Origin: Escherichia phage VTCCBPA_211 | Sequence record: PP989838.1 | Direction: 5' to 3' (one strand) | DNA: 64,000 bases | In this document: positions 494-29,682 of the stretch, piece after piece | Layout: the number at the start of each line of letters is the position of its first letter | How positions within the stretch are numbered: position 1 is the first letter of the stretch | Translations under genes and position numbers: made by a program | The notes under the pieces: generated by a model | What the model was told of the DNA's origin: nothing | What the model saw: only the letters and a program-made list of their open reading frames with translations | Databases searched by the model: none

Positions 494-667
494 AATTATT
501 TAAGTGGTATATTATTACCGCACTATCTGGCTATGTTCCCCCGTGGTCTGTTCTGCGGTTGTATGCCCCGTCCTATATAGTAGAAATAGTTTACCCGTGG
601 TCGCTTGTCTTCCTTGTTAAGTAATAGTAAATTGAAGCCTATCAATTGAGTGATTGGAGTGATAGAA

Positions 668-841: not shown

Positions 842-894
842 GAAAGCGTGTCCTATTATATCCCTATCTGATACATATCAAAGAGGCTTCACAA

Positions 895-1386
895 ATGACT
901 AAACCAATGCAGATGATTAATCTGGCAAGTTATGCGCTAGTCGCCGCGATCGGTGTTAGCGCGCTGGTAACATCTCTTTCTGATAAGGCTATTGCTGGCC
1001 CTATTTCTGCAAATGATGCCGCTAGTGTTTTCGCTAGTTCCATCAATAAAGGTTGGATGATTTGCAATGGTGCGGATAGTGATGGAAGTGCCATTGTGTT
1101 AAAAGTGAAATTTAGCAACGTTACTAATGAGGGCGTTCTCTTTCAGTCTAAGACGTTGGACAATCAGCCGAACAATGATCTGGTACTCAAGCGCACTGAT
1201 AACGATGCGGATATGGTGACGTATGGCACTGTAAAACGTTATAAAGACGTTAAAGCTGTAACCAATCTAGTGAGTTATGGCCCGGTTAATCAGTCGATGA
1301 TTGCCACCACGGTTTACAATAACGCTGATAATGCTGTTTATACTGTTCACATTAATCTAGCCAACTGCATCAAGGCCAGTAAGTAA
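895..1386 (+). CDS. secreted/periplasmic protein with signal peptide (163 aa), function unknown
   Basis: RBS AGAGG upstream; signal-like N-terminus ..LASYALVAAIGVSALVTSLSDKAIA-GP; track ORF. Confidence 0.7.
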   Translation: MTKPMQMINLASYALVAAIGVSALVTSLSDKAIAGPISANDAASVFASSINKGWMICNGADSDGSAIVLKVKFSNVTNEGVLFQSKTLDNQPNNDLVLKRTDNDADMVTYGTVKRYKDVKAVTNLVSYGPVNQSMIATTVYNNADNAVYTVHINLANCIKASK

Positions 1387-1413
1387 ATAACCAATTTTCA
1401 GGAGTAACAAAAA

Positions 1414-1665
1414 ATGAGTAACGAAGCGATTAAATTATCCAGCGGTGTTTCTTGTTTTGTGTGTGATACTTTTATCTCGTTCGGCTTGGAAGAAGGTTGC
1501 GTTATAATCCCTACCGTTGCCTTTTGTTCCATGAGTTTTAGCGAGGCTAAAAGATGGCTCCAATTGGTGCGCATTGATATAAATCGCGATGACTTCCGTT
1601 CAATTTACAATGACGGTGGTTTGTCGCTTGCTGGTCTTCTGGATTGTGATTTGCCAAAATGGTGA
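1414..1665 (+). CDS. hypothetical protein (83 aa)
   Basis: RBS CAGGAG 9 nt upstream; tight spacing after previous gene; track ORF. Confidence 0.6.
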   Translation: MSNEAIKLSSGVSCFVCDTFISFGLEEGCVIIPTVAFCSMSFSEAKRWLQLVRIDINRDDFRSIYNDGGLSLAGLLDCDLPKW

Positions 1666-1670
1666 TAAAA

Positions 1671-1757
1671 ATGATTCATGATTATCTTTGGCGTTGCTTG
1701 TTCGTTGTTACAGTGGCGTTGTTCGTCGCTGATATGCTTTATTCTTACATCCTTTGA
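1671..1757 (+). CDS. micro-ORF, single-TM peptide (28 aa) MIHDYLWRCLFVVTVALFVADMLYSYIL
   Basis: Hand translation; GGTGA 5 nt upstream; first of four back-to-back hydrophobic mini-ORFs ending at a terminator. Confidence 0.35.
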   Translation: MIHDYLWRCLFVVTVALFVADMLYSYIL

Positions 1758-1766
1758 GGTCCGGTT

Positions 1767-1865
1767 GTGTTGTTTCTGTTTTTGTTTGCCATTGGCTTCA
1801 TTTCTTTAAATTATTTACTGATTGTTGCCGCTCTCGATGTTATTAATCTCACCATTAAAGGTTGA
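1767..1865 (+). CDS. micro-ORF, single-TM peptide (32 aa), GTG start
   Basis: GTG 5 nt after GAGG; ..LFLFLFAIGFISLNYLLIVAALDVINLTIKG. Confidence 0.35.
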   Translation: MLFLFLFAIGFISLNYLLIVAALDVINLTIKG

Positions 1866-1871
1866 TTGGCT

Positions 1872-1967
1872 ATGTGGTTTATTAGATTCGTCGTTAAAAC
1901 GGTTGTAGGCTTCTTTCTGGTCATTCTTCTGTTAGGTGTCCTTCTATCGGCTATGGGTAATGCTTAA
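1872..1967 (+). CDS. micro-ORF, single-TM peptide (31 aa) MWFIRFVVKTVVGFFLVILLLGVLLSAMGNA
   Basis: Hand translation; AAAGG ~10 nt upstream; stop overlaps the next start (ATGCTTAA). Confidence 0.35.
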   Translation: MWFIRFVVKTVVGFFLVILLLGVLLSAMGNA

Positions 1968-2040
1968 ATCCATAGGCTTAATCTTTCTCCTGTATTGTGC
2001 CGTGGTCATGCCTATGGTCATAATCTATCTGATGCTCTAA
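1960..2040 (+). CDS. micro-ORF, single-TM peptide (26 aa) MLKSIGLIFLLYCAVVMPMVIIYLML
   Basis: Hand translation; start overlaps the previous stop; terminator follows 10 nt later. Confidence 0.35.
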   Translation: MLKSIGLIFLLYCAVVMPMVIIYLML

Positions 2041-2050
2041 TCCTTCCTAT

Positions 2051-2079
2051 AAGCGCCGCTATGGCGCTTTTCTGTTTTC
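2051..2079 (+). terminator. rho-independent terminator
   Basis: AAGCGCC-GCTAT-GGCGCTT (7-bp stem) followed by TTCTGTTTTC. Confidence 0.7.
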
Positions 2080-2252
2080 TAAGGTGATTGTATTCCTTAC
2101 TCCCTTTTAGTTCGCTGTAGTGCGTTTTAGGCCGTTAAATATCGATTTACAAGCCGTTTCCTATGATGTACCGCGTGCGTGCGCTCTTTTACTCTCCCAC
2201 TATGAAAAAAGTTTAAAATATTTTGCTTTACCCTATTGCATCCCTCACTGAT

Positions 2253-2261
2253 TAATGTATA
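2253..2261 (+). promoter_or_regulatory. TAATGTATA element (putative phage-sigma promoter -10-like element)
   Basis: Exact 9-mer; one of five exact copies, all intergenic; followed by hairpin + boxA. Confidence 0.5.
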
Positions 2262-2295
2262 CTTCATTTCATCGGGTACGATGTAAAACATACAA

Positions 2296-2322
2296 GGCAA
2301 GAAATTGCCCCGCTCTTTAAAA
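2296..2322 (+). promoter_or_regulatory. boxB-like hairpin + boxA antitermination element (unit 0)
   Basis: GGCAA-GAAA-TTGCC directly followed by CCGCTCTTTAAAAA. Confidence 0.6.
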
Positions 2323-2359
2323 ATCAGGCTAGAAAGTGAAAATATTCTTAAAAAGAGTA

Positions 2360-2388
2360 TTGACACCAGAAAAAGCCTGATACATAAT
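2360..2388 (+). promoter_or_regulatory. strong sigma70 early promoter P1
   Basis: TTGACA-17 nt-CATAAT; A-rich UP-like tract upstream; start region CATAATTAGCACAC shared with P3. Confidence 0.75.
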
Positions 2389-2396
2389 TAGCACAC

Positions 2397-2432
2397 AGTC
2401 AGCGATGACTTGAAAAATCCCGCTCTTTAAAA
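2397..2432 (+). promoter_or_regulatory. boxB-like hairpin + boxA (unit 1)
   Basis: AGTCA-GCGA-TGACT hairpin, then CCGCTCTTTAAAAA at 2420. Confidence 0.6.
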
Positions 2433-2509
2433 ACTTATCATCTTGCCCTTTCGCACAGAATCACGCGAGAAAGAGGGATAGAAAAGAAAAGAAGATGATA
2501 AAAAAGAGA

Positions 2510-2538
2510 TTGCAAACGTGGTTAAAGTAGTTCATACT
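2510..2538 (+). promoter_or_regulatory. sigma70 early promoter P2
   Basis: TTGCAA-17 nt-CATACT; A-rich upstream tract (AAAAAGAGA) as in P1. Confidence 0.7.
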
Positions 2539-2652
2539 AACCACAAGTTAGCAAAACATCGCTAACTAGTTCCCAAATCAACGTATCGCGGGAAAGGTGG
2601 CACATAGTGCAGCGAGTAGTTCGGGATTAGGCGCCCCGTTAATGAATAAGTA

Positions 2653-2712
2653 AGCCTTTAATGATGCAGTGATTAGCAGACACTATAAAAGGCTAAAAAC
2701 GCTCTTTAACAA
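2653..2712 (+). promoter_or_regulatory. hairpin + consensus boxA (unit 2)
   Basis: AGCCTTT..AAAGGCT stem, then CGCTCTTTAACAA at 2700-2712 (rrn boxA is TGCTCTTTAACAA). Confidence 0.65.
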
Positions 2713-2814
2713 AATGAATCATGAGTTAAGCCTTATCGCTTAATCTTCAACCCAACAAAGCGGGTTGATATATCCTCCCAATAGAGGGAACGACGAAAAA
2801 GATTAAAAAAGTGG

Positions 2815-2843
2815 TTGACGGCGAAAACATCATGGTCCATAAT
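2815..2843 (+). promoter_or_regulatory. strong sigma70 early promoter P3
   Basis: TTGACG-17 nt-CATAAT; A-rich UP-like tract; CATAATGAGCACAC start region. Confidence 0.75.
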
Positions 2844-2904
2844 GAGCACACTCAAGCAAAACACCGCTTCAGTGAAAAGCGAAACAACGGCTTACAGTTG
2901 CGTA

Positions 2905-2944
2905 GTGTGAGAAAGCACACTGACAGATTTACCGCTCTTTAATA
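2905..2944 (+). promoter_or_regulatory. boxB-like hairpin + boxA (unit 3)
   Basis: GTGTG-AGAAAG-CACAC hairpin, then CCGCTCTTTAATAA at 2932. Confidence 0.6.
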
Positions 2945-3752
2945 ATTTAAACATTCTCCTATATCGGTTGCATATGCTGGAAGATAATAACCATCGGAAA
3001 GCATACCAGATAAAACGGTGTAAGGCCCCTAAACTATCAGGGTAAACAGTCTTACAATCCCTTAACTGGAAACGTCACCACTGTTAAACGGATTCATTGA
3101 GTACACGCAACGGCTTAAACTAATCGCCCACGGTTAAAGGGTAGCGGCGGCCATCGCTAACAAGGTGCTACAATGAAAGAAGTTTATCAGGGTAGGCAAG
3201 TCCGACAAATTAACGCCCAATTGAGGGCGGCGGGGGATGGTTAAAAAGTGGCAAATTGCTATTTAACAATAAGGTTTAATGCGAACGTTTACGATGTGAA
3301 CGGCTTGAGATTCGTCTTATGACGGAAGTACATAGTCGGGTTATGTAGTAAACCCGCCGAAAGATATAAAACGCCGGAATATTAGGCGGTCAATGATCTC
3401 TTTCCGCAATAACCTCCCGTAGTGGGCGATGGTTAGCGGTTAGGAGTTGGCACAAAGGATAAGCGGGAGCGAAAACAAAGTAGACGATATTGCCGACGGT
3501 TACAGCAATGTAATTAAATAGAGTCGGACGCATAGCCTTATTGTGATGATTGATCATCGCTATCAGGTCGGCTTCGTTTATAGCGACTAATTAAAGATAC
3601 CAGATGAAACATCACGGATAAGGGGGCGGCAAGGTTAACTCCTGATAAGACCGCCCCGCTTATCAATAATTACTTAACAATGAGTGGTTATCGATAAGTC
3701 AACAGTGACTTAAAAAGCTCATAGAGAGCGGGGCATAGTGCCCTTACAATTG
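2945..3752 (+). other. ~0.8 kb ORF-free transcribed leader / candidate structured non-coding RNA
   Basis: No ORF above 23 codons with an RBS; GC-richer than flanks; many hairpins and short repeats (TATCAGGGTA x2, AACGGCTT x3, GATAAG x5); downstream of 4 promoters with boxA. Confidence 0.3.
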
Positions 3753-3765
3753 AAAGGTGAATATC

Positions 3766-4665
3766 ATGGCTAAAATCTTTACTCTGGTTAACGAATCTGG
3801 TTTTAATGCTCTGGCTAACAATATCCGTAGCAATAATGCAGCGATCAAACAGGATGTTTCTAATTTTCTGTTAGGGCACTTACAGCACTTCCGTAGCAAC
3901 GGTAAAAAGTTAGACGTATTGCAGTCGGCGGTTGATTTTCTGTTAACCGAACGTTTCCGCGATATGGATGTTATTGCTACCGCAATCACTTTCTTAACTC
4001 CTATCAAGTTTAACACTGATGCGGCGAATGGTCGTAAGAAGTGGATTAATCTGGAAGGTGAAGCGAAAGCGAAAGAAGATGCGAAAGAAGCGCAAATTAA
4101 AACCAAAATGGAGCAAAACCGCGCTCGCTGGTCAAACGCTTTCGAAAACTTCGCGTTAGGTCGTGAAATTGAAGTCGATAACCCTAACTTCTTCAAAGGT
4201 TGCAATGACAACGTAGCGGCACACCTGCAAATTCCGGCAAAGAATAAAGAAGACTTTAACCAAGATATTTACGCTTTGGTTGAACGCTTGAATGCAATCC
4301 GTATTGAAGCCAAATTACTGGCTGATGAGCGCAACGGCGCAACCAGTGATAATACTATCGCCTTAAGTGAAGAAGTGGGCAAGGTTAAAAAGTCCTTTGA
4401 TTCACTCATCAAGAAAGTCACGGCATCGACGGTAGCGATCTCAGATGATTATCTGATGAACGCATCAAGCAAGGAGCTGGAATCACTCGATTCATACGCT
4501 GATGAAATGGAAAAGACTGTTGCAGCTATGCAGGAGAAGTTAGAAAGTCTGCGCGGTCGTATCTCTTCAACGGTTGCTACCCGTACCGAACAAGCTGCGA
4601 AAGAAGAAGAGGAAGAAGTATTGCGTAAAGCTGCTGAAATTATGGCGGCACGTCAGGCGGCATAA
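3766..4665 (+). CDS. hypothetical early protein (299 aa), C-terminal acidic coiled coil
   Basis: ATG 8 nt after AAAGG; first ORF after the boxA leader; strong terminator follows. Confidence 0.75.
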   Translation: MAKIFTLVNESGFNALANNIRSNNAAIKQDVSNFLLGHLQHFRSNGKKLDVLQSAVDFLLTERFRDMDVIATAITFLTPIKFNTDAANGRKKWINLEGEAKAKEDAKEAQIKTKMEQNRARWSNAFENFALGREIEVDNPNFFKGCNDNVAAHLQIPAKNKEDFNQDIYALVERLNAIRIEAKLLADERNGATSDNTIALSEEVGKVKKSFDSLIKKVTASTVAISDDYLMNASSKELESLDSYADEMEKTVAAMQEKLESLRGRISSTVATRTEQAAKEEEEEVLRKAAEIMAARQAA

Positions 4666-4687
4666 GTAAGACAATCTAAATAAACAT

Positions 4688-4722
4688 AAGGCGCTATCTT
4701 AACGGGTAGCGCCTTTTCTTTA
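4688..4722 (+). terminator. rho-independent terminator
   Basis: AAGGCGCTA-10 nt loop-TAGCGCCTT (9-bp stem) followed by TTCTTTAT. Confidence 0.75.
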
Positions 4723-4775
4723 TCAGTGCATTGATTCAGTGCATTAATCAAAGAATCTAATCAAAGGTGACGATC

Positions 4776-4994
4776 ATGTTAATTACACATACCACGATTT
4801 ATCGGAATCTTGTCAACGGTCAACATTACCGCCTATCTAAAAAGTATGGCGTTGAATGTAAATGCGTTATTACCGGTGAATGGTATCCGTCACCAATGAA
4901 GATTGAAACGTTGGAACGTGAAGCGATCAGCTATATTATCACGCAAGAAACAACGTTAGGCCGTATCTTAAGAAAGCTGGGATTGAGAAAATGA
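4776..4994 (+). CDS. hypothetical protein (72 aa)
   Basis: ATG 5 nt after AAAGGTGA; inside track ORF 4767-4994. Confidence 0.6.
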   Translation: MLITHTTIYRNLVNGQHYRLSKKYGVECKCVITGEWYPSPMKIETLEREAISYIITQETTLGRILRKLGLRK

Positions 4995-5215
4995 TATTCA
5001 GTAATAATTTTGGCAAGTGTCCTATTTGTGAGAAGCATCGCAGCACGGGAAACCATCGCAAGTGTAGTAAGATATTACAGCGCCAACGTGATAACAACCA
5101 TTGGGATACTGTGCACACTAACCAGCGTAAAGAAGAAGTTAGGAAAATGGCTGTTAAAGCGTCGTTTGCTCAATCAACCCGTATCGAACATATTCAAAGG
5201 TATCAAGCATTATGA
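4991..5215 (+). CDS. small basic protein with CPIC..H..H zinc-knuckle-like N-terminus (74 aa)
   Basis: ATGA start/stop overlap with the upstream gene; preferred over alternative frame 5010-5222. Confidence 0.55.
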   Translation: MIFSNNFGKCPICEKHRSTGNHRKCSKILQRQRDNNHWDTVHTNQRKEEVRKMAVKASFAQSTRIEHIQRYQAL

Positions 5216-5421
5216 TCACTAATATTTCAGAGTTTAAGAAAGCGCCATCTCGTTTGTTAGGTCGTCGTGTTATATATCTTTACAGCAATAAAGGTAAATG
5301 TACAACCGGACAAATTACAACGGTGAGTAGTACCAACAAAACATTACTAAAATTATGCGTAACTATGGATGATGGTACAATCCTGCTACGTAGTTGGAAG
5401 TCATTTAGTTTACTCGATTAA
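5212..5421 (+). CDS. hypothetical protein (69 aa)
   Basis: ATGA overlap with the upstream gene; track ORF. Confidence 0.55.
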   Translation: MITNISEFKKAPSRLLGRRVIYLYSNKGKCTTGQITTVSSTNKTLLKLCVTMDDGTILLRSWKSFSLLD

Positions 5422-5490
5422 GTTATTTGTTCAAGCCTATCGCCTTGGTGGGCTTGCCCGATATAACTTATCACTGAAAGGAGTGAGATT

Positions 5491-5934
5491 ATGGCTAAAT
5501 CTAAAATCAGTATGAAGGGCGGGCGTTGTTTTTCTATCTCTGAACTGGAGAAAGAGAAGCCGAAGGCAACCAATTACATTAGTAAGCGCAGTTTAAAACG
5601 TCGTGCTGCAAAGGCTGAAGCTGAATCCTATATCCCTTCTAGTGTGGCAAAACGTGTAGGTCATCGCGTCCATCGTGCTGATGCGTTGTTGTTAGCTGAT
5701 CATAAACGTTCTTTGTTAAAGAGCGGGGGAGCTAAAACAGAAGAAGAGAAGAAATTAGAAATATTCTGTAATGGTCGCACCCGTGGTAAACAGAAGTTTA
5801 AGGGTAGCACGAAAGACCCTCAGGCTTTCCCTAAGACAAGCCAGTGTGCACCTGATGTTTTCTACGCAGACAGTAAACACAAGTGGGGCGTTGAAAAATA
5901 CATTGACCCTATCAAAGAGGCGAGGGTTAAGTAG
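5491..5934 (+). CDS. highly basic protein (147 aa), function unknown
   Basis: RBS AAAGGAG 8 nt upstream; K/R-rich; track ORF. Confidence 0.7.
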   Translation: MAKSKISMKGGRCFSISELEKEKPKATNYISKRSLKRRAAKAEAESYIPSSVAKRVGHRVHRADALLLADHKRSLLKSGGAKTEEEKKLEIFCNGRTRGKQKFKGSTKDPQAFPKTSQCAPDVFYADSKHKWGVEKYIDPIKEARVK

Positions 5935-5950
5935 TAGGAATATATCCCCT

Positions 5951-5968
5951 CTTTTAGTACTATGACGC
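5951..5968 (+). repeat. conserved 18-mer CTTTTAGTACTATGACGC, copy 1
   Basis: Exact second copy at 11712-11729; both lie just after a stop codon, preceded by a pyrimidine tract; here followed by CGCTCTTT (boxA-like core). Confidence 0.6.
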
Positions 5969-6013
5969 TCTTTCTGTAGCGTCGTGCCCTCTCCCCATTT
6001 GAAGCTTCCGCAT

Positions 6014-6036
6014 AGCCGCCTTTGAGCGGCTTTTTG
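6014..6036 (+). terminator. rho-independent terminator
   Basis: AGCCGC-CTTTGA-GCGGCT followed by TTTTT. Confidence 0.65.
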
Positions 6037-6098
6037 CGTTGCTGTAAGTGCATTTGCGAGTGTATTTATAGCAACGGTCATGTGTTGCTTTCAGGTTT

Positions 6099-6126
6099 GC
6101 CCCGGCTACGGCTGGGGCTTTTTTAT
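6099..6126 (+). terminator. rho-independent terminator (UACG tetraloop)
   Basis: GCCCCGGC-TACG-GCTGGGGC (8 bp, one G-U) followed by TTTTTTA. Confidence 0.8.
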
Positions 6127-6173
6127 GCCCGTAAAACAGGAGGTAGCAAGTTCTGATAACAACGGCACAGCTA

Positions 6174-6563
6174 ATGTTGACATTGACTATTTATTATGAG
6201 GCAGGGAATCAGCCAACCGCATGTAAAGCTATGGTTGCGGATACCGTGATAAATAGAATGGCCCAACGAAAACTGACCGCTGAACAGGTGATAAGACAAA
6301 AGAACCAGTTTGAGTGGATTCCGGTACTATTAAAACAGGAGAAACCTTATAAACGTTATGTAAAGCTGATTCGTGATAAAAATCCGATGACTAAGCAAGC
6401 CATTGGAGAAAGCGAGCGACTTGCTAAACGTGCCCTTAAGAAGAATTATGTTCCGCTGTACAGTGGGACTTACTTTCAGAGTAAGAGCGAAGGGGTGCCA
6501 AAATGGTATGCCAATCCCATGTATTGTGGTGATTTAGTGTTCGATAATAGCTCTAGGGAATAA
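6174..6563 (+). CDS. SleB-like cell-wall hydrolase domain protein (Hydrolase_2-like, 129 aa)
   Basis: LTLTIYYEAGNQP..AMVADTVINRM..NQFEW resembles the SleB-family N-terminal motif; start uncertain (strong AGGAGG at 6138 has no canonical start nearby). Confidence 0.6.
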   Translation: MLTLTIYYEAGNQPTACKAMVADTVINRMAQRKLTAEQVIRQKNQFEWIPVLLKQEKPYKRYVKLIRDKNPMTKQAIGESERLAKRALKKNYVPLYSGTYFQSKSEGVPKWYANPMYCGDLVFDNSSRE

Positions 6564-6762
6564 TCACTAGTGCCAGATTTGACAAACTAAATTCCTTTAT
6601 AAACCAACCACTTAGTAAATTTATTGAAAAAGATGGTAGTATTCTGGGACTATGAGTAATGCTCTGTATATAGACCCTTTGAAAATTTCTTAGAAAATAA
6701 GTTTACTAAATATAACTTACTTAAATAATATTACTTTTAATCTCTGATAAAGGGTAAATAAT

Positions 6763-7059
6763 ATGACTTTAGAAGTATATAAATTCCTTTTTGTAAGCTG
6801 TTTAACTATCAGCGTTATAGGATTTATTATCCTTAGAAACAAAGCAGCAAGCTGGGAGAGAATGTATAAATCCCTAGTCCGAGTGGATGAGATGTATAAT
6901 GAGAAAGTTAAAGTGACTCTTAACGATCTTATTATGCAAGTTGAAGACAGAAACAAACGTCTTCAGAACCTCAATCATGAAGTATTGCGCCTTGCTCGTG
7001 CTAATGAAGACTTGCGAGTGGCTATTGCTAAGCAGCAGGAGATTAACAGTGATAATTGA
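6763..7059 (+). CDS. membrane-anchored coiled-coil protein (98 aa)
   Basis: RBS AAAGGG upstream; N-terminal TM then heptad-like region; track ORF. Confidence 0.6.
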   Translation: MTLEVYKFLFVSCLTISVIGFIILRNKAASWERMYKSLVRVDEMYNEKVKVTLNDLIMQVEDRNKRLQNLNHEVLRLARANEDLRVAIAKQQEINSDN

Positions 7060-7060
7060 T

Positions 7061-7285
7061 ATGAACCATCCACCAAAGAAGTTAACTCTTGGGGATCTAG
7101 ATTCAGGTGATGTGTTCCAATTCTTTGTGAACTCTGATGATTTTTATATGGCTTCCTGTAGATTTAACAAATCGGATGGTTGTAGAAATTATATGAACCT
7201 TTCGAACGGTGTGATCTCAGCAGATCGTAATACTGTGGTTGTTAAGAAGATTAACAATGCTCGACTTACAGATAAGGTGGATTAA
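7061..7285 (+). CDS. GDVF-family small protein, paralog 1 (74 aa)
   Basis: KKLTLGDLDSGDVFQF motif shared with 6 other ORFs; internal ATG of track ORF 6941-7285, abutting the upstream stop. Confidence 0.6.
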   Translation: MNHPPKKLTLGDLDSGDVFQFFVNSDDFYMASCRFNKSDGCRNYMNLSNGVISADRNTVVVKKINNARLTDKVD

Positions 7286-7287
7286 CA

Positions 7288-7524
7288 GTGAAAGTTAATA
7301 TTAAATCTGATCGTACAATGCTTCGATTAAATAACATGAAGCCGGGCGTTCTGTTTGAGCGTAAAGAGTCCCTTTATATTAGAACTGACACATTGTACGC
7401 AGATAACTATGTGAACTGTGTTGATGTGGTAACTGGAAAGCTAATGCCTATTAAACGAGATGAAGTCTGCCAAGTACGCAGTGATCTCCACATAACAAAC
7501 ATAGAGGCTAAAGATGAAGATTGA
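7288..7524 (+). CDS. GDVF-family small protein, paralog 2 (78 aa), GTG start
   Basis: RBS AAGGTGG upstream; LRLNNMKPGVLFE variant of the family motif. Confidence 0.6.
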   Translation: MKVNIKSDRTMLRLNNMKPGVLFERKESLYIRTDTLYADNYVNCVDVVTGKLMPIKRDEVCQVRSDLHITNIEAKDED

Positions 7525-7768
7525 TCTGAACCTTAAAGCTAAAGAATTGCGTGTGGGTGATTTGAAACTTGGTGATGTGTTCCAAGTTAAGGCAACATGT
7601 ATTGATTATTACATGATTGTTCAGCTATACACACCACATGTGTCAGAGACTGATCTTCGGAATGGTTGTGTAGTTCTTAGTTTAAGCACCAATCAAGTAA
7701 TGAAGCTAGATTCAAACTTACCTGTTTCAGTCATCCATGATGTAGTAATTACTAATAAAGAAAAGTAA
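7514..7768 (+). CDS. GDVF-family small protein, paralog 3 (84 aa)
   Basis: RBS AGAGG; KELRVGDLKLGDVFQV motif; overlaps the upstream gene by 11 nt. Confidence 0.65.
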   Translation: MKIDLNLKAKELRVGDLKLGDVFQVKATCIDYYMIVQLYTPHVSETDLRNGCVVLSLSTNQVMKLDSNLPVSVIHDVVITNKEK

Positions 7769-7777
7769 CATCGACTT

Positions 7778-7810
7778 ATAGCCCTTGTGTTTATCAGAGG
7801 GCTATGTGAG
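7778..7810 (+). repeat. conserved intergenic hairpin + GGGCTATGTGAG, copy A
   Basis: ATAGCCCT-12 nt-AGGGCTAT then GTGAG; homologous element at 12041-12067; no U-tract. Confidence 0.5.
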
Positions 7811-8126
7811 GGTGTTCCTCATTAACTTATTAATTCAGGCATATGCCACACCGCTAGGGAGAGCTTGCTCGAACATCCGGTGTTAGACTAAAACCTGTTA
7901 ATTTTCGAAAGACTTTCTGATATGTAGGGGTACATATTGGTTTGGGATTCAGGAGACTTCCTAGGGGTAGGGAGTCTTCACCAGTTGGGATAAGAGATAG
8001 CTCTAGAACCTGAACTCTTAGGCAGAGAAGGTCGGCAATGAGTACGCGGTCAGAATTAGTCTACTGACTAGGGCTATCCCTTATATCAACTGGCAATAAT
8101 GCCTCCACTAACAAAGAGAGATAGAT

Positions 8127-8267
8127 ATGAAAGTATCAACCAAACGTATGAACCGCCCTGAACGTATGGATGCAGTAGCTAATGGTGCTCTGAAACTGGA
8201 AGGCTTCTGGATTCATGCGATGTCAGCCATCCGTAACAAGCAAGGCAATTGGACCTATGGTAACTAA
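8127..8267 (+). CDS. hypothetical small protein (46 aa)
   Basis: Hand translation MKVSTKRMNRPERMDAVANGALKLEGFWIHAMSAIRNKQGNWTYGN; GAGAG upstream. Confidence 0.4.
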   Translation: MKVSTKRMNRPERMDAVANGALKLEGFWIHAMSAIRNKQGNWTYGN

Positions 8268-8457
8268 CAAAGAACAAAAAGCTATCTGTCGTTGTGCTCC
8301 TTTCTTCTTTGCAGAAGACGGGGATGTGTTCAGTAAGCTTGCACAAGAGTTAGGTTGTTCTCGAACTGGTGCTAAGGTAGTCTTTCATAAGTGGCTTATC
8401 TATTCTGACTCTTACGTGGCTATCAAATTAAGAGAACTGCAAATACACACGCTTTGA
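8257..8457 (+). CDS. small HTH-like protein (66 aa)
   Basis: Internal ATG of track ORF 8215-8457 overlapping the upstream stop; SKLAQELGCSRTGAKVVFHKW looks helix-turn-helix-like. Confidence 0.5.
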   Translation: MVTNKEQKAICRCAPFFFAEDGDVFSKLAQELGCSRTGAKVVFHKWLIYSDSYVAIKLRELQIHTL

Positions 8458-8461
8458 ATAA

Positions 8462-8494
8462 AAGGCTGCCCAATCGGGTGGCCTTTGTTGTTTT
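8462..8494 (+). terminator. rho-independent terminator
   Basis: AAGGCTGCCC-AATC-GGGTGGCCTT (10 bp, 2 wobbles) followed by TGTTGTTTT. Confidence 0.7.
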
Positions 8495-8538
8495 AATTAA
8501 GGGTCAGCTCTTACTTAAACTAACAAGAGGAAGCTCAA

Positions 8539-8715
8539 ATGTCTAAGCAAACAATCAAACATACGCAAGCTGGTTACTCTTATGTTAACTCTCCTTGTTG
8601 TGGCGCTCGTGTCAATATGGTTAAGGAAGAGGTTCGTATCGTTCAGCGTGGCGCTACTGTTGTTCGTTCATGCTGTGTCTGTGGTAATGATATTTTTATC
8701 AAAGGTAAAGTATGA
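8539..8715 (+). CDS. zinc-ribbon protein (58 aa)
   Basis: RBS AGAGGAAG upstream; CC at residues 20-21 and CCVC near the C-terminus; hand translation. Confidence 0.5.
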   Translation: MSKQTIKHTQAGYSYVNSPCCGARVNMVKEEVRIVQRGATVVRSCCVCGNDIFIKGKV

Positions 8716-8963
8716 AAAACTTTCAAGCTGCACCAATTACTAAAGTGATTGCAGTTAATGATGTGATGATGGCTGTTCCTCTGAACACTCGTTACATTGC
8801 AATTGACAAGATGGGTTATGTATGGGCTTGGAAGATTAAGCCTAGCTATAACGCACTGTTTGATGAGTTTGTTTGTACTGGTACTTACAGTCCTACATTC
8901 TTGGGTTTGTTTAGTGAGTTTGATGGTCAGTATAAAATCATCACACTCCCTGCTTGTGCTTGA
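8712..8963 (+). CDS. hypothetical protein (83 aa), paralog of 8971-9204
   Basis: ATGA overlap; RYIAIDKMGYVWAWKIKP matches RYLATDSNGEVYGFTHKP in the next ORF. Confidence 0.6.
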   Translation: MKNFQAAPITKVIAVNDVMMAVPLNTRYIAIDKMGYVWAWKIKPSYNALFDEFVCTGTYSPTFLGLFSEFDGQYKIITLPACA

Positions 8964-8970
8964 GGTTCTG

Positions 8971-9204
8971 ATGGAGACTAAAGAGGTTAAATATTTTGGT
9001 GAAGTTGTTAAAGTAGGTAACTCTATAAGATATTTAGCAACTGATAGCAACGGCGAAGTGTATGGCTTTACCCATAAGCCAGAAATTCGTGGATATGCTT
9101 GGGCACTCCCTTATGGAACTCCATTCGAGACTGGAGGAGCTGTTTATCTTAATGATAATGGACCTATGTTTGCATGGAAAACATCTCTCGTTGAGGTAGT
9201 GTAA
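8971..9204 (+). CDS. hypothetical protein (77 aa), paralog of 8712-8963
   Basis: ATG 5 nt after GAGG; internal start of track ORF 8797-9204. Confidence 0.6.
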   Translation: METKEVKYFGEVVKVGNSIRYLATDSNGEVYGFTHKPEIRGYAWALPYGTPFETGGAVYLNDNGPMFAWKTSLVEVV

Positions 9205-9206
9205 TT

Positions 9207-9371
9207 ATGTTCAAGTGGTTTAAACGTCTATTCCATCTGCACGATTGGGTAATCCTTGAAAAGTATACACTAAAGATCACTGATGATTATGGCGATACGA
9301 AACATAAAGGTTTACGCTACATCATGCAGTGTAAAACGTGTGGTCATATCACCAAGCGAGATATGATCTAA
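9207..9371 (+). CDS. hypothetical small protein (54 aa) with C-terminal CxxC
   Basis: Hand translation MFKWFKRLFHLHDW..QCKTCGHITKRDMI; GAGG 9 nt upstream. Confidence 0.45.
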   Translation: MFKWFKRLFHLHDWVILEKYTLKITDDYGDTKHKGLRYIMQCKTCGHITKRDMI

Positions 9372-9379
9372 ATAATTCT

Positions 9380-9456
9380 GCGCCCTTAGTTCAATTGGAC
9401 AGAACATCGGATTTCTAATCCGTCGGTTACAGGTTCGAATCCTGTAGGGTGCGCCA
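9380..9456 (+). tRNA. tRNA-Arg (anticodon UCU, reads AGA), CCA encoded
   Basis: Manual cloverleaf: acceptor GCGCCCT/AGGGTGC, D arm GTTC/GAAC, anticodon loop TTTCTAA, T arm ACAGG-TTCGAAT-CCTGT, 3' GCCA. Confidence 0.9.
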
Positions 9457-9475
9457 AATCGAATAGGAGGTAGCC

Positions 9476-9775
9476 ATGAGTTGGGGTGGTGTAATATCCT
9501 TAATCTGTATCTTCCTTGTCTGCATAGCCCTTACAGGCTGCGTACAGAGCCGTCCTGATGGATGGTGTGCAGTAGCAGTGGATGGTATTTGTGTATCTCG
9601 CTGGCATAAGGGTGAGAAGATTCCTTCTGGTGAGATTAATATGCGCTGGAACGGAGCAACCTGTTCTAATGCTAACCCTTCTATCAACGAAGAGAAGTCT
9701 ACACCGGATAATGTTGTTATTGATACAGCATTGTGGTGTGGTGGCTCTACGATTACAACCGGTAAGGAGTGGTGA
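9476..9775 (+). CDS. Cys-rich lipoprotein (99 aa)
   Basis: Strong RBS TAGGAGG; signal peptide with lipobox LTG-C (..FLVCIALTGCVQS). Confidence 0.7.
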   Translation: MSWGGVISLICIFLVCIALTGCVQSRPDGWCAVAVDGICVSRWHKGEKIPSGEINMRWNGATCSNANPSINEEKSTPDNVVIDTALWCGGSTITTGKEW

Positions 9776-9776
9776 T

Positions 9777-9974
9777 ATGAATTACACATCTACAAAGGTG
9801 TTAATTGATTCAATTAATAGCTCCTCAGAAGCTGTACAGGAGCGTTTAATACAAGATGTTAGCAATGACATTAAGTTCTTTGTTAAACGACGCCTGTTAG
9901 GTTCTAAGGCTTATTACAGAGCTAAAGCAGAGCTTACAAAGAGGGTGTTTCTCTTACACGGATTAGTGTATTAA
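9777..9974 (+). CDS. hypothetical protein (65 aa)
   Basis: ATG after AAGGAGTGG, abutting the lipoprotein stop; internal start of track ORF 9582-9974. Confidence 0.5.
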   Translation: MNYTSTKVLIDSINSSSEAVQERLIQDVSNDIKFFVKRRLLGSKAYYRAKAELTKRVFLLHGLVY

Positions 9975-10218
9975 GAGCTTATCGTGAAGGATTCTTACGA
10001 GAGTCCTTTGAGATAGGACTTCAGATCTCCTATCAAACTAACATTCATGTAACTAGCCCATAAGGGCGTTACCCTTTAATAACCCAGCCCACTAAGGGGG
10101 CGGGAGTTTAGTGCTGGATTGGCTTTACGCTTATCCCTACAAAGGCAACCGATTGTTAGATCTTACATGCAATATTAACTAATAGGATAAGGGAGGATTC
10201 GTCCCCTCCCCCTATTTA

Positions 10219-10248
10219 TTGAATCTTTATCTAAGCAAGTCTTATATA
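10219..10248 (+). promoter_or_regulatory. possible sigma70 promoter
   Basis: TTGAAT-18 nt-TATATA, ~20 nt upstream of the 10269 start. Confidence 0.3.
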
Positions 10249-10268
10249 AATGTTTAATTGGAGGGTAT

Positions 10269-10580
10269 ATGAAACCTGAAAGAATTAGATGGACTCCTGA
10301 AGTTATAAAACAGCTAGAAGTCTTGGTTAATAATTATTCTTTAGAAACAGTTGCAGATATTATGGAAACAAACAAATCAGTTATTAGCAGAGCCTGCTCT
10401 AGTTTCCAGATAAAACGTAAACGTCAAAGAAAAGTCTGGTCTGAAGAAGAAGATCAGTTCCTTATCCGTAATGCTGGGTTCATGCCCATTCAGAGAATGG
10501 CTGACATGCTCGGTAGAAGTTATGCTGCTGTACAGAACAGGGCATGTATGCACCTTAACATTAGCCTAAAACTTAAATAG
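10269..10580 (+). CDS. DNA-binding protein with two Myb/SANT-like repeats (103 aa)
   Basis: RBS GGAGGG; repeats RWTPEVIKQLEVLV.. and VWSEEEDQFLIRNAG..MADMLGRSYAAVQNR. Confidence 0.6.
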   Translation: MKPERIRWTPEVIKQLEVLVNNYSLETVADIMETNKSVISRACSSFQIKRKRQRKVWSEEEDQFLIRNAGFMPIQRMADMLGRSYAAVQNRACMHLNISLKLK

Positions 10581-10588
10581 GAGTCAAG

Positions 10589-10819
10589 ATGAATTTTGAA
10601 CTAGTACCAAAAAGCAAAACACCCTCCAAGACTTTCTCTGACTTGGAGAATGGAGATGTTTTTCGTTTTATTGGTGACGATGTAGTCCCTAAATTCTGGA
10701 TAAAAACAGGGGAACATTCTGCAATGTGTGTTCGGAACCCTAAAGATATTTTCTTTCCGGTCCCTTTGTCCAATACTGTTGATCTGTTCGAATCTAAACT
10801 TATTATTCAGGGTAAATAG
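10589..10819 (+). CDS. GDVF-family small protein, paralog 4 (76 aa)
   Basis: RBS TAGGAG; KTFSDLENGDVFRF motif. Confidence 0.65.
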   Translation: MNFELVPKSKTPSKTFSDLENGDVFRFIGDDVVPKFWIKTGEHSAMCVRNPKDIFFPVPLSNTVDLFESKLIIQGK

Positions 10820-10820
10820 T

Positions 10821-11069
10821 ATGAAGATTACTCACAAGAAAGAAGAAGTGACTACGGTTGATCTCAACTCCCTTCCCAGCGGAGCAGTATTTAAATTCCC
10901 TGAGAGTGCTACTCTCTATGTTAAAGGGTCTGTGTCTGAAAGTCCTCATGTAACCGTTAACTCTGATCGAGCAATTACCCTTCGTTTATCCGATGGTAAC
11001 GTAACAGCACCTTCTATCTGGTGCCGAGTTGTTCCTGTGTCGGCAGAACTTTTGGTGGATAACACATAA
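10821..11069 (+). CDS. GDVF-family small protein, paralog 5 (82 aa)
   Basis: Internal ATG of track ORF 10728-11069, 2 nt after the upstream stop; VDLNSLPSGAVFKF motif. Confidence 0.6.
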   Translation: MKITHKKEEVTTVDLNSLPSGAVFKFPESATLYVKGSVSESPHVTVNSDRAITLRLSDGNVTAPSIWCRVVPVSAELLVDNT

Positions 11070-11314
11070 TGAAAATCATCCCAAAGAAAAAGGATAATAC
11101 GGTACGATTGGAAACAATCATTCCTGGAAATCCTTTCGTGGTTCAGAACGGAAGTGCTTCTCCTCAATATTACATGAGGGTTGAAAATGCTTCTTGTAAC
11201 ATCCGTATAGCCAGTGGTTGGGTTCCTGTGGTAAACCTTTTCACAGGTGTACTATCTGTTAAAGGTCTTGACGATCAGGTAGAAATGATTCGTATGTCTG
11301 TGGTTCAGGAGTAA
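11069..11314 (+). CDS. GDVF-family small protein, paralog 6 (81 aa)
   Basis: TAATG overlap with the upstream gene; VRLETIIPGNPFVV variant motif. Confidence 0.6.
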   Translation: MKIIPKKKDNTVRLETIIPGNPFVVQNGSASPQYYMRVENASCNIRIASGWVPVVNLFTGVLSVKGLDDQVEMIRMSVVQE

Positions 11315-11321
11315 CAAGTAG

Positions 11322-11570
11322 ATGAGCACCATTAGTATTAAAGTTAAGCATAAGAAAGAGAACATCCTCAGGGTTATGGATTTATTCAGAGCCGACGTCT
11401 TTACTTTAAAACAGTGTCCAACTTCCCATACCTACATGCTAACGAACCCGAGCAATGGTCTTAAGCCCGCTGGGGCGGTTAATCTGGGAACTGGAGAACT
11501 TCGGACAATTGCTGGTGATATGGTTGTTGATGAGAAGTTTAGTAAAGTCGAAATGATCTTAACTCCTTAG
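11322..11570 (+). CDS. GDVF-family small protein, paralog 7 (82 aa)
   Basis: LRVMDLFRADVFTL variant motif; same size class; track ORF. Confidence 0.6.
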   Translation: MSTISIKVKHKKENILRVMDLFRADVFTLKQCPTSHTYMLTNPSNGLKPAGAVNLGTGELRTIAGDMVVDEKFSKVEMILTP

Positions 11571-11578
11571 GAAAACAA

Positions 11579-11695
11579 ATGAGACTTAAAGCATATTCTT
11601 ATGACGATATGATTAACCAAAAAGGCTTCGGTCAACGACAGCCTGATGGTTCAATTATCTGGTTCGTAAACGGACAGAAAAAGGTAGCTAAATAA
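11579..11695 (+). CDS. hypothetical small protein (38 aa)
   Basis: Hand translation MRLKAYSYDDMINQKGFGQRQPDGSIIWFVNGQKKVAK; AGGA upstream. Confidence 0.35.
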   Translation: MRLKAYSYDDMINQKGFGQRQPDGSIIWFVNGQKKVAK

Positions 11696-11711
11696 GCCCT
11701 CTTCTCTCCTC

Positions 11712-11729
11712 CTTTTAGTACTATGACGC
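11712..11729 (+). repeat. conserved 18-mer CTTTTAGTACTATGACGC, copy 2
   Basis: Exact repeat of 5951-5968; follows a stop codon and a pyrimidine tract; a hairpin follows at 11742-11763. Confidence 0.6.
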
Positions 11730-11801
11730 CTCTCTGTGGGCGGCCCAATTTGCGTAGGGAATTCCCTCTACGCAGCCATGACTTTTTAAGGAATTTCCCC
11801 T

Positions 11802-12035
11802 ATGTCTAAAGTAAGCGCAATTGATGCAATCCGTCAACCATTCCAGTTCCAATCTAAATCAACCCAAACCTTCAGTGAGCCTAAGCAAATTCGCTTGGGC
11901 GGCACAGAAAAAACTGTGTTTGATCTGGCTAAAAATAAGAGCGTTACCGTAGTTGATGGTGGCACTCTGGTTAACGTTTCCCATCGAATCCGAACTGGCA
12001 AAACTGCCAAAGATCGTGCTAAGAAAGGCGAGTAA
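11802..12035 (+). CDS. hypothetical protein (77 aa)
   Basis: AAGGA upstream; track ORF. Confidence 0.6.
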   Translation: MSKVSAIDAIRQPFQFQSKSTQTFSEPKQIRLGGTEKTVFDLAKNKSVTVVDGGTLVNVSHRIRTGKTAKDRAKKGE

Positions 12036-12040
12036 CGCCT

Positions 12041-12067
12041 ATAGCCTTCTTCGGAGGGCTATGTGAG
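12041..12067 (+). repeat. conserved intergenic hairpin + GGGCTATGTGAG, copy B
   Basis: ATAGCCT-TCTTCGG-AGGGCTAT then GTGAG; homolog of 7778-7810; further shared blocks downstream. Confidence 0.5.
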
Positions 12068-12261
12068 TTATTCTGACTCAACTAACCTAATCTTAATATA
12101 TTTCCCGTATGGGGCCGATGCTAGGGCGAGGAGTGTTCCTCAAACATCCGTCGGATAGATATTTTAAGAGCAGGTTATCCACAGATATTGGGTAATATCT
12201 TTTTGTATTTAAAGCTTGACTCTTTTCGGAGAGTCCTTTTTTAAATTCAACGAGAGGAAAT

Positions 12262-12414
12262 ATGTCTAAATTAGATTTAAAACTGCTAGCAGCAGCGGTA
12301 GTGATTTGTGCACTAGCACTGGTAACGCAGAGAACATCTGGATTTATTCAGTGTTTCTTTTCTGGGCAATCCACTTATCAGTGGGTTATTGACGAGTGTA
12401 AACAACAGGAGTAA
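12262..12414 (+). CDS. small membrane protein (50 aa)
   Basis: RBS GAGAGGAAA; TM LLAAAVVICALALV; hand translation. Confidence 0.5.
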   Translation: MSKLDLKLLAAAVVICALALVTQRTSGFIQCFFSGQSTYQWVIDECKQQE

Positions 12415-12416
12415 GT

Positions 12417-12779
12417 ATGAATACACGTCCCATCAAGGGCAACGTTAATATTGAAACTCTGAACAAGGTTGCATCAAACCTCGGTGGAATGTCCAACGAT
12501 GAGCTTGAGCAAGAACTTGCTTGGATTGCAAATGGTATCAAAGTTGCTAAAGGTAAGATTGCTCGTGAGCAAAGCAACATGAAAGCTCACAAGTATATCA
12601 TCCGTCGTGCAAATGTGTTACCAGAGCGGGTTGTACATCTTGCCCGTAAAAACTACGCAGAAGCAAAGAAAGCTCTGGAAGAAGCTACTTTCCAGAAGCA
12701 CCAATTTATGAACAACTATCGAAACTTCCGAGATATTCTTTATATCCGTAAGTCGATTGAGTTGATTAAAAACCAATAG
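12417..12779 (+). CDS. hypothetical coiled-coil protein (120 aa)
   Basis: RBS CAGGAG; track ORF. Confidence 0.65.
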   Translation: MNTRPIKGNVNIETLNKVASNLGGMSNDELEQELAWIANGIKVAKGKIAREQSNMKAHKYIIRRANVLPERVVHLARKNYAEAKKALEEATFQKHQFMNNYRNFRDILYIRKSIELIKNQ

Positions 12780-12790
12780 AGGTTGGTATA

Positions 12791-29680: not shown

Positions 29681-29682
29681 TT

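What the first reader, a model, noticed from the sequence alone, without database searches (positions are those of the whole stretch)
7061..11570. A seven-member family of ~80-aa 'GDVF' proteins in two tandem arrays
Three consecutive ORFs (7061, 7288, 7514) and four consecutive ORFs (10589, 10821, 11069, 11322) are all 74-84 aa. They share an N-terminal pattern: basic residues, then L.(L/V).DL..GDVF, then a beta-strand-like segment, then a second conserved G.

Examples are KKLTLGDLDSGDVFQF, KELRVGDLKLGDVFQV, KTFSDLENGDVFRF, VDLNSLPSGAVFKF, VRLETIIPGNPFVV, LRVMDLFRADVFTL and LRLNNMKPGVLFE.

Seven diverged copies account for about 3% of the window's coding capacity. That suggests an expanding, diversifying early-gene family, of the kind often linked to host takeover or counter-defence. 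I cannot assign a fold from sequence alone. A small SH3-like beta barrel is a guess.
Basis: seen in the sequence. Interest (0 to 1): 0.5.

Follow-up and report, generated by a model that had tools for sequence, protein, structure and literature searches.

The report
Multi-copy small beta-barrel phage protein family
Seven small early genes of this phiEco32-like coliphage are true relatives of one another. They belong to a large, unnamed, function-unknown family of about 77-residue SH3-like beta-barrel proteins that many unrelated phages carry in several tandem copies.

Summary
The window is a phiEco32-like Kuravirus, and all seven ORFs exist in its early-gene region. One correction: the first starts at GTG 7049, not ATG 7061.

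- **Homology.** A profile built only from 128 non-Kuravirus relatives hits all seven (E 1e-16 to 1.7e-7). The next best of 785 window ORFs scores 0.32.
- **Family size.** There are 316 clusters at 50% identity, almost all 65-95 aa. Members include N4 gp21 and four Salmonella phage 7-11 genes. There is no Pfam, NCBIfam, PADLOC or PDB match, only PHROGs of unknown function.
- **Copy number.** Window 7, phiEco32 9, EcoN5 8, YF01 7, SU7 4, 7-11 4. One metagenomic phage has 16 in tandem, and fused two- to six-domain proteins exist.
- **Selection.** Orthologues evolve under purifying selection (dN/dS 0.02-0.32). Conserved residues are mainly hydrophobic or turn glycines, and one loop is hypervariable.

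Function is unknown. My best guess, held with low confidence, is non-enzymatic binding modules used in host takeover or counter-defence.

The parts
7049..7285 (+). Family member 1. It has no orthologue in phiEco32, a 56%-identical one in YF01, and is most similar to member 3.
   Evidence: (E 2.3e-14)
7288..7524 (+). Family member 2. It is 78 aa with a GTG start and an AAGGTGG Shine-Dalgarno sequence. It is the orthologue of phi32_115 and belongs to phrog_16423.
   Evidence: (E 9.3e-13)
7514..7768 (+). Family member 3. It is 84 aa, the orthologue of phi32_114, and belongs to phrog_9955. This member was modelled: pLDDT 79.6, five-stranded barrel.
   Evidence: (E 1.2e-16)
10589..10819 (+). Family member 4. 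It is 76 aa, the orthologue of phi32_98, and belongs to phrog_10911. It is the most divergent member: it lacks the second conserved Gly, and the HMM covers only positions 6-50. It still models as the same barrel.
   Evidence: (E 1.7e-7)
10821..11069 (+). Family member 5. It is 82 aa, the orthologue of phi32_97, and belongs to phrog_7832.
   Evidence: (E 4.2e-15)
11069..11314 (+). Family member 6. It is 81 aa, the orthologue of phi32_96, and belongs to phrog_7431.
   Evidence: (E 1.1e-16)
11322..11570 (+). Family member 7. It is 82 aa, the orthologue of phi32_95 (65% identity), and belongs to phrog_12612.
   Evidence: (E 1.8e-9)
7041..7065 (+). Translation-initiation region of member 1. It recurs at 84% identity at 7280-7304 in front of member 2 (GATTAACAGTGA.A.TT.ATAT). 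This is the only nucleotide-level trace of the duplications.

Best explanation
The seven genes are paralogues of one widespread phage-borne protein family with no name in Pfam or NCBIfam.

**What each protein is.** Each encodes a stand-alone domain of about 77 residues that folds as a five-stranded SH3-like beta-barrel. The conserved positions are mainly hydrophobic residues and turn glycines, with a few moderately conserved polar positions (K2, D/E21, K/R35):
- MKI at the N-terminus
- L-x2-G-[DE]-V-F
- Y-[MI]-[KR]
- V-x-L-x2-G
- V-x-P-V
- a hydrophobic C-terminal strand

There is no catalytic-looking constellation of residues. The loop between strands 2 and 3 is hypervariable in sequence and length.

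**What I infer they do.** I infer that they are non-enzymatic binding modules made early in infection. Each paralogue would use its variable surface to bind a different partner, most likely a host protein or a defence component. On this view the set is part of the phage's host-takeover or counter-defence equipment, and members are gained and lost between related phages.

**Shown versus inferred.**
- Shown: homology, fold class, family breadth, multi-copy tandem organisation in unrelated phages, copy-number turnover, and purifying selection.
- Shown only by synteny and literature: early expression.
- Inferred and untested: protein-binding activity and the takeover or counter-defence role.
For: **Family and homology**
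- establish homology. The non-Kuravirus HMM hits all seven at E 1e-16 to 2e-7.
- One search finds 316 clusters at 50% identity with E<=1e-3, nearly all 65-95 aa and matched end to end.

**Fold**
- The two models have pLDDT 79.6 and 83.1 and pTM 0.68 and 0.72.
- Both models hit overlapping sets of uncharacterised small phage proteins in BFVD.

**Scaffold with a variable loop**
- High conservation falls mainly on hydrophobic and glycine positions.
- The loop between strands 2 and 3 varies from 3 to 31 residues, while the other turns are fixed.

**Charge**
- The median pI of 130 distant members is 5.55, and only 8% are above 8. This argues against general nucleic-acid binding.

**Multi-copy and turnover**
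- Copies per genome: window 7, phiEco32 9, YF01 7 (a different set), EcoN5 8, SU7 4, phage 7-11 4, N4 at least 1 (gp21; only the first 30 kb scanned).
- A 61-kb metagenomic phage contig has 16 copies in two tandem arrays. A 98-kb contig has 4 and a 183-kb contig has 2.
- Fused forms exist with 2 domains and with about 6 domains.

**Real genes**
- Orthologue dN/dS is 0.02-0.32, and most members have Shine-Dalgarno sequences.

**Early class**
- The genes are syntenic with phiEco32 genes 95-98 and 114-115, inside the cluster described as early and as likely involved in host takeover (PMC8948821, PMC9965538).
- In phage 7-11 the members lie between the right-end early promoters (upstream of gene 151) and the first late promoter (upstream of gene 69) (PMC8948821).

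**Circumstantial**
- Gordonclarkvirinae are reported to be highly resistant to the tested defence systems (PMC11990801).
Against: - No member of the family has any experimental or annotated function. Pfam, NCBIfam, PADLOC, PDB sequence search and the literature gave nothing.
- Whole-gene dN/dS shows no arms-race signature.
- Six of the seven paralogues sit at conserved positions in the related Kuravirus phiEco32. That would also fit housekeeping roles in the phage's own development.
- SH3-like barrels such as KOW, L2, HspQ and Sm-like domains often bind nucleic acids, and the N-terminus is lysine-rich.
- Expression timing was not measured for this phage.
Confidence: 0.4

Rival explanations
1. 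The proteins are small nucleic-acid-binding regulators. On this view the barrels behave like KOW, Sm or HspQ domains and bind phage or host RNA or DNA, or the ribosome or RNA polymerase through nucleic acid. They would tune phage transcription or translation rather than target host proteins or defences.
For: - The N-terminal tail is lysine-rich: MKIxxKxKK, with 2-5 K/R in the first 15 residues.
- K/R at position 35 is 78% conserved.
- Members 6 and 7 are basic, with pI 8.9 and 9.3.
Against: - The family is acidic overall: median pI 5.55, and 59% of members are below 6.
- There is no conserved aromatic or basic surface patch, and no KOW or Sm sequence motif.
- There is no Pfam hit to any nucleic-acid-binding SH3-clan family.
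Confidence: 0.15
2. The paralogues work together as subunits of one hetero-oligomeric assembly. On this view the arrays encode parts of a single machine or scaffold rather than independent binders. This would explain why several copies are kept side by side and why they are sometimes fused.
For: - Fused proteins exist with two copies (P0132, P0205, P0209) and with about six copies (P0137). These are 'Rosetta-stone' style fusions.
- Tandem, often overlapping, co-oriented genes suggest co-translation.
- Small barrels of this fold class commonly oligomerise (general knowledge).
Against: - Copy number and paralogue identity differ between close relatives, ranging from 4 to 9 with different sets present. 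That is hard to reconcile with a fixed stoichiometric complex.
- Only one copy (gp21) was found in the 30 kb of N4 that was scanned.
- Fusions can also arise trivially through loss of a stop codon in a tandem array.
Confidence: 0.12
3. The proteins act as sponges or decoys for small-molecule immune signals or metabolites, by analogy with the small phage proteins that sequester cyclic nucleotides. Multiple paralogues would cover different ligands.
For: - The proteins are small, non-enzymatic, abundant in copy number and early.
- In one metagenomic phage, four copies are interleaved with NAD-salvage genes (NAPRTase, PRPP synthetase) and TerC/TerD genes.
- In phage 7-11, members lie 1.5-2.4 kb from the NAMPT/PRPP-synthetase genes.
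Against: - No conserved pocket-forming polar residues are evident in the family profile.
- There is no similarity to known sponge families by sequence.
- The context association rests on a few loci and may simply reflect a shared accessory region.
Confidence: 0.08
4. The resemblance is coincidental. On this view, short beta-rich ORFs of similar size share a GDVF-like motif by chance or through composition.
For: - Some pairwise and leave-one-out statistics are weak: o10589 and o11069 fail the within-window leave-one-out test, and several hhalign pairs score above 0.01.
- Large repeat proteins (P0121, P0126) match the N-terminal motif spuriously.
Against: - The independent non-Kuravirus HMM separates the seven (E<=1.7e-7) from all other 778 ORFs (E>=0.32).
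- PHROG cross-matches are collinear from position 1 to position 1.
- Both structural models give the same fold and hit overlapping sets of structural neighbours.
Confidence: 0.01

Closest known systems
PHROG families 9955, 16423, 10911, 7832, 7431 and 12612, together with 6570, 8365 and 34455 (all labelled 'unknown function')
   Same: Each window protein matches one of these end to end (E 5e-20 to 2e-49). Distant relatives match several of them at once, so together they form one superfamily.
   Different: PHROGs keeps them as separate, unannotated families. No name, function or structure is attached to any of them.
Bacteriophage N4 gp21 and Salmonella phage 7-11 gp110, gp112, gp131 and gp133
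   Same: They are sequence members of the same family (N4 gp21 E 6e-15; 7-11 members E 1.5e-14 to 2e-5). They are the same length and carry the same motifs.
   Different: They come from other phage families (Schitoviridae, Grimontviridae). Only one copy was found in the 30 kb of N4 that was scanned. They too are uncharacterised.
SH3-like small beta-barrels: ribosomal L2 C-terminal domain, FeoA, DtxR/IdeR SH3 domain, KOW, Tudor, PWWP, UvrD C-terminal domain
   Different: Sequence identity is only 5-22%. No Pfam match to any of these families was found, and their signature motifs are absent. The N-terminal extra strand and the conserved GDVF / YMK / VxLxxG motifs are specific to this family. The resemblance is at fold level only.
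Tandem multi-copy families of small early ORFs in virulent phages (for example the host-takeover modules of T4, T5 and SPO1; from general knowledge)
   Same: They share the small size, early position, tandem co-oriented arrangement, variable gene content between relatives and mostly unknown functions.
   Different: No sequence relationship was tested or is known. Here a single domain family recurs across very different phage lineages and reaches 16 copies in one genome.

Membership tests
Unnamed 'GDVF' small-barrel phage family (PHROG superfamily 7832/6570/7431/8365/9955/16423/12612/10911) | A significant match to a profile built from family members outside Kuravirus | tested here: met
   All seven score E 1.1e-16 to 1.7e-7, against 0.32 for the best other ORF.
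Unnamed 'GDVF' small-barrel phage family (PHROG superfamily 7832/6570/7431/8365/9955/16423/12612/10911) | A stand-alone protein of 65-95 aa carrying the motifs L-x2-G-[DE]-V-F, Y-[MI]-[KR], V-x-L-x2-G and V-x-P-V in that order | tested here: met
   The alignment and column statistics show it. F23 is invariant in all seven. G20 is present in six and is Ala in o11322. The second Gly is missing in o10589 and is Asn in o7514.
SH3-like small beta-barrel fold class | A five-stranded, tightly wound antiparallel barrel with structural similarity to solved SH3-like domains | tested here: met
KOW / Tudor / FeoA / bacterial SH3 sequence families (Pfam SH3 clan) | A match to the family HMM at or near the gathering threshold | tested here: not met
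   No such Pfam hit was found for any of the 137 aligned family members, seven window proteins included, at E<=0.01, nor for the seven at E<=1. NCBIfam also gave none.
Known anti-defence protein families | Homology to an experimentally shown defence inhibitor | not testable with these tools
   No anti-defence library is available here. PADLOC, which holds defence proteins, gave only isolated chance-level hits. Literature searches found nothing.
Early (host-RNAP-transcribed) gene class of phiEco32-like phages | Transcription in the early period of infection | not testable with these tools
   Position is syntenic with phiEco32 genes 95-98 and 114-115 in the cluster reported as early (PMC8948821, PMC9965538). 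No expression data exist for this phage.

The most novel reading that the evidence does not exclude
The family is a general phage scaffold for evolving binders. A conserved SH3-like barrel would carry one hypervariable loop, and the gene would be amplified in tandem (from 4 copies to at least 16 per genome) and shuffled between phages. That would generate a repertoire of inhibitors of host defence or host housekeeping proteins. If so, it would be a new, widespread class of counter-defence or takeover proteins spanning Kuravirus, N4-like, 7-11-like and large uncultured phages.
Probability: 0.2. Interest if true: 0.7.

Novelty: new member of a known kind. Interest (0 to 1): 0.4.

Why it matters
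The genes themselves have been annotated as 'hypothetical' since phiEco32 was sequenced. The new points are these:
- They form a single superfamily with a predicted fold.
- The family is large (316 clusters at 50% identity).
- It reaches model phage N4.
- It repeatedly forms tandem arrays in unrelated phages.

This gives a concrete, tractable target for several lines of work: a Pfam-type family definition, structural work, and functional screens in the easily handled coliphages N4 and the Kuravirus members of the BASEL collection. If the members prove to be inhibitors of host or defence proteins, one family would explain a noticeable share of the 'dark' early genes in several phage groups.

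Tried and rejected
**Tried without result**
- Pfam, NCBIfam, PADLOC and PDB sequence searches on the seven proteins and on the 137-sequence family alignment gave only scattered chance hits.
- The search for related loci on IMG/VR failed because the alignment has no stretch of 7-10 conserved columns.
- Foldseek against AFDB50 was unavailable.
- tblastn of a distant member (P0154) against cultured phages found only weak Kuravirus hits.
- Literature searches for phiEco32 or Kuravirus paralogues, N4 gp21, and small barrel anti-defence families found no description of the family.

**Rejected**
- Chance similarity is rejected.
- Matches to the large proteins P0121, P0124, P0126 and P0144 came from one short stretch of the profile's N-terminal third. 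For P0121 and P0126, re-scanned, they are sums of many matches of about 2-5 bits to a 91-residue repeat and are spurious; P0124 and P0144 gave no domain match in that re-scan.
- Recent duplication is rejected because there is no nucleotide similarity apart from one initiation region.
- The annotations 'DNA helicase', 'endolysin' and 'endonuclease' on members in the EcoN5 record are unsupported by any profile search here.
- A cell-wall-binding SH3b role is considered unlikely. I saw no signal-peptide-like hydrophobic stretch in the sequences, and no SH3b family match was found.


Full report
**Identity of the window.** Region 6500-12500 is 91-94% identical to phiEco32-like coliphages (Kuravirus, Gordonclarkvirinae). 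GC skew and ORF orientation put the + strand early and middle genes in the first 44 kb or so. The region of interest is collinear with phiEco32 genes 116-88.

**The observation.**
- All seven ORFs exist on the + strand.
- Six have recognisable Shine-Dalgarno sequences. The start of 10821 has only a weak one.
- The first member should start at GTG 7049, giving 78 aa, rather than ATG 7061. An AGGAG lies 8 nt upstream, and the database orthologue P0003 begins MIIDMNHPPKK.
- The 25-nt initiation region 7041-7065 recurs at 7280-7304 in front of the GTG start of the second member. With this start the protein also fits the family's conserved M-[KI]-I N-terminus.

**Is the similarity real?**

Within the window alone the signal is uneven:
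- BLASTP links 7061 and 7514 at 6e-7, but most pairs score 1e-2 to 1.
- Leave-one-out HMMs are significant for four members, borderline for 7288, and fail for 10589 and 11069.
- hhalign between orthologue-only profiles gives 6e-8 to 0.3.

External evidence settles it:
- (i) Each protein has its own PHROG and cross-hits the others' PHROGs collinearly from residue 1.
- (ii) A profile search of 1.84 billion representative proteins found 316 clusters with E<=1e-3. Almost all are 65-95 aa and matched end to end. The consensus is MKIxxKKKxxTVxLxDLKPGDVFKF...YYMKT...NAVNLsTGkL...VIPVeAELVI.
- (iii) Of the 137 aligned family members (130 distant relatives plus the seven window proteins), 115, 104, 60, 49, 28 and 13 match the six PHROGs that belong to the window proteins.
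- (iv) An HMM built only from 128 non-Kuravirus members hits the seven window ORFs at E 1.1e-16 to 1.7e-7, against 0.32 for the best of the other 778 ORFs.

ORF 10589 is the outlier. The HMM covers only its N-terminal two-thirds and it lacks the second conserved glycine. A family alignment nevertheless places its C-terminus (TVDLFESKLII) on the family's last strands. No further member is present in the window.

**Fold.**
- AlphaFold2 on 7514 gave pLDDT 79.6 and pTM 0.68, with five strands.
- AlphaFold2 on 10589 gave pLDDT 83.1 and pTM 0.72, with an extra N-terminal strand.
- Foldseek against BFVD returns, for both models, overlapping lists of uncharacterised phage proteins of 60-90 aa from Escherichia, Serratia, Proteus, Morganella, Erwinia, Dickeya, Pseudomonas, Vibrio and Yersinia phages, including N4 Gp21.

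**No known family.** Pfam, NCBIfam, PADLOC and PDB sequence searches gave nothing consistent. Literature searches found no description of the family.

**Conservation pattern.**
- High-information columns are M1, K2, I3, L17, G20, V22, F23, Y33, M34, K/R35, V55, L57, G60, V71 and V74, plus the C-terminal hydrophobic strand. These are mainly hydrophobic positions and turn glycines, with K2 and K/R35 the polar exceptions.
- No catalytic-type polar constellation is conserved.
- The loop between strands 2 and 3 ranges from 3 to 31 residues (SD 4.0) and has near-zero information content. The turns between strands 3-4 and 4-5 are fixed in length.
- The family is mostly acidic, with median pI 5.55. 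The seven window proteins range from pI 6.0 to 9.3.

**Distribution and copy number.** The family HMM gives the following counts.

| Genome | Members |
|---|---|
| Window | 7 |
| phiEco32 | 9 (genes 115, 114, 113, 109, 104, 98, 97, 96, 95) |
| YF01 | 7 (a different set: lacks the gene-98 type, has the gene-104 type and a 56%-identical copy of member 1) |
| EcoN5 | 8 |
| SU7 (Suseptimavirus) | 4 |
| Salmonella phage 7-11 (Grimontviridae) | 4 (gp110, 112, 131, 133) |
| N4 (first 30 kb scanned) | 1 (gp21, E 6e-15) |
| 183-kb metagenomic contig | 2 adjacent |
| 98-kb metagenomic contig | 4, interleaved with PRPP-synthetase, NAPRTase, TerC and TerD genes |
| 61-kb contig at 32% GC | 16, in two tandem arrays within 6 kb |

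- Fused versions exist: three two-domain proteins and one 515-aa protein with about six copies.
- Tandem multiplicity is thus a recurrent property of the family, not a peculiarity of this phage.
- In Kuravirus the paralogues are old. They share 15-30% identity, six keep positional orthologues in phiEco32 (the seventh in YF01), and they have no nucleotide similarity except the one initiation region.
- Orthologues evolve under purifying selection, with dN/dS 0.02-0.32.
- Orthologue divergence is very uneven. For example, 7514 is 70% identical to its phiEco32 counterpart but 99% to YF01's. This fits mosaic exchange.

**Timing.** The phiEco32 cluster containing genes 95-98 and 113-115 is described as the early class, transcribed by host sigma-70 RNA polymerase, most variable between relatives, and 'likely' involved in host takeover (PMC8948821, PMC9965538). 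In 7-11, the family members lie between the right-end early promoters (upstream of gene 151) and the first late promoter (upstream of gene 69) (PMC8948821). I did not verify timing for this phage. The consensus promoter scan was not informative (26 promoter-like sites against 33 expected).

**Interpretation.**
- Firmly shown: this is a real, large, phage-borne family of stand-alone SH3-like barrels that tends to occur in tandem multi-copy arrays with turnover between relatives.
- Inferred: the proteins are non-enzymatic binders whose specificity lies in the variable loop and surface, acting early on host or defence targets.
- In favour: small size, absence of catalytic residues, acidic character, early position, gene turnover, and the reported broad resistance of Gordonclarkvirinae to tested defence systems (PMC11990801).
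- Against, or neutral: no functional datum for any member, a generic fold, no positive-selection signal, and retention of most paralogues between Kuravirus genomes.
- Rivals: nucleic-acid-binding regulators, subunits of a hetero-oligomer (suggested by the fused forms), and small-molecule sponges (weak context with NAD-salvage genes).
- Chance similarity is excluded.

**Verdict.** The functional reading is plausible but unproven. The finding is a new, so far unnamed, member of a familiar kind: multi-copy small early phage proteins. It is of moderate interest, mainly because of its breadth, its presence in model phage N4, and its striking tandem expansions elsewhere.

Noticed in passing
window 7768-10589, compared with L001 4034-8075: The stretch between the two arrays differs from phiEco32. 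The window lacks equivalents of phi32_113, phi32_109 and phi32_104, which are three further family members in phiEco32, along with several neighbouring small genes. It keeps tRNA-Arg(TCT) at 9380-9456 and the lipoprotein-like ORF at 9476-9775.
   Followed up: partly
window 27938-28198 / 29599-29883; 30008-30280 / 32860-33105; 33546-33803 / 33775-34089: Three other pairs of small + strand ORFs in the middle region are paralogous by BLASTP (E 3e-5, 3e-5 and 8e-14). They are unrelated to the GDVF family.
   Followed up: no
L013 8832-14816 (ENA ERZ16268292 scaffold_2832, 61 kb, 32% GC): Sixteen family members sit in two tandem arrays within 6 kb of an uncultured phage contig. This is the largest expansion seen.
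   Followed up: partly
L012 8001-9548 (protein P0137, 515 aa): A single protein is made of about six fused copies of the domain. It sits on a phage-like contig next to PARP-like, glycosyltransferase, MT-A70, sigma-factor and T4 RNA-ligase genes. Two-domain proteins (P0132, P0205, P0209) also exist.
   Followed up: partly
L008 (phage EcoN5) 4550-4807, 4810-5043 and 9194-9424; L001 3264-3560: Public records label small proteins here as 'DNA helicase', 'endolysin' or 'endonuclease'. The three EcoN5 CDSs fall in ORFs that the family HMM hits, and no profile search here supports those names. The 98-aa phiEco32 gene 116 ('DNA helicase') is not a member and was not searched here; its name looks doubtful from its size alone.
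   Followed up: partly
window 1-14000, + strand: Terminator-like hairpins are about twice as frequent as in shuffled sequence (23 against 10.6 +/- 3.1). Strong examples lie at 6099-6118, 4688-4715 and 8461-8486, which suggests the early region is cut into several transcription units. The best sigma-70-like promoters are at 2360-2388 and 2815-2843.
   Followed up: no
proteins P0121, P0124, P0126 and P0144: Very large proteins rank high in the profile search only through one short stretch of the profile's N-terminal third. P0121 and P0126, re-scanned, sum many 2-5-bit matches of a 91-residue repeat to that stretch; P0124 and P0144 gave no domain match there. They are false positives and worth excluding from any family seed.
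   Followed up: yes
L005 10001-14791 and L006 2629-8223: In a roughly 98-kb uncultured phage, four family members are interleaved with PRPP-synthetase, NAPRTase (NAD salvage), TerC and TerD genes, downstream of a ProQ-domain gene. Whether this context is meaningful was not tested.
   Followed up: no
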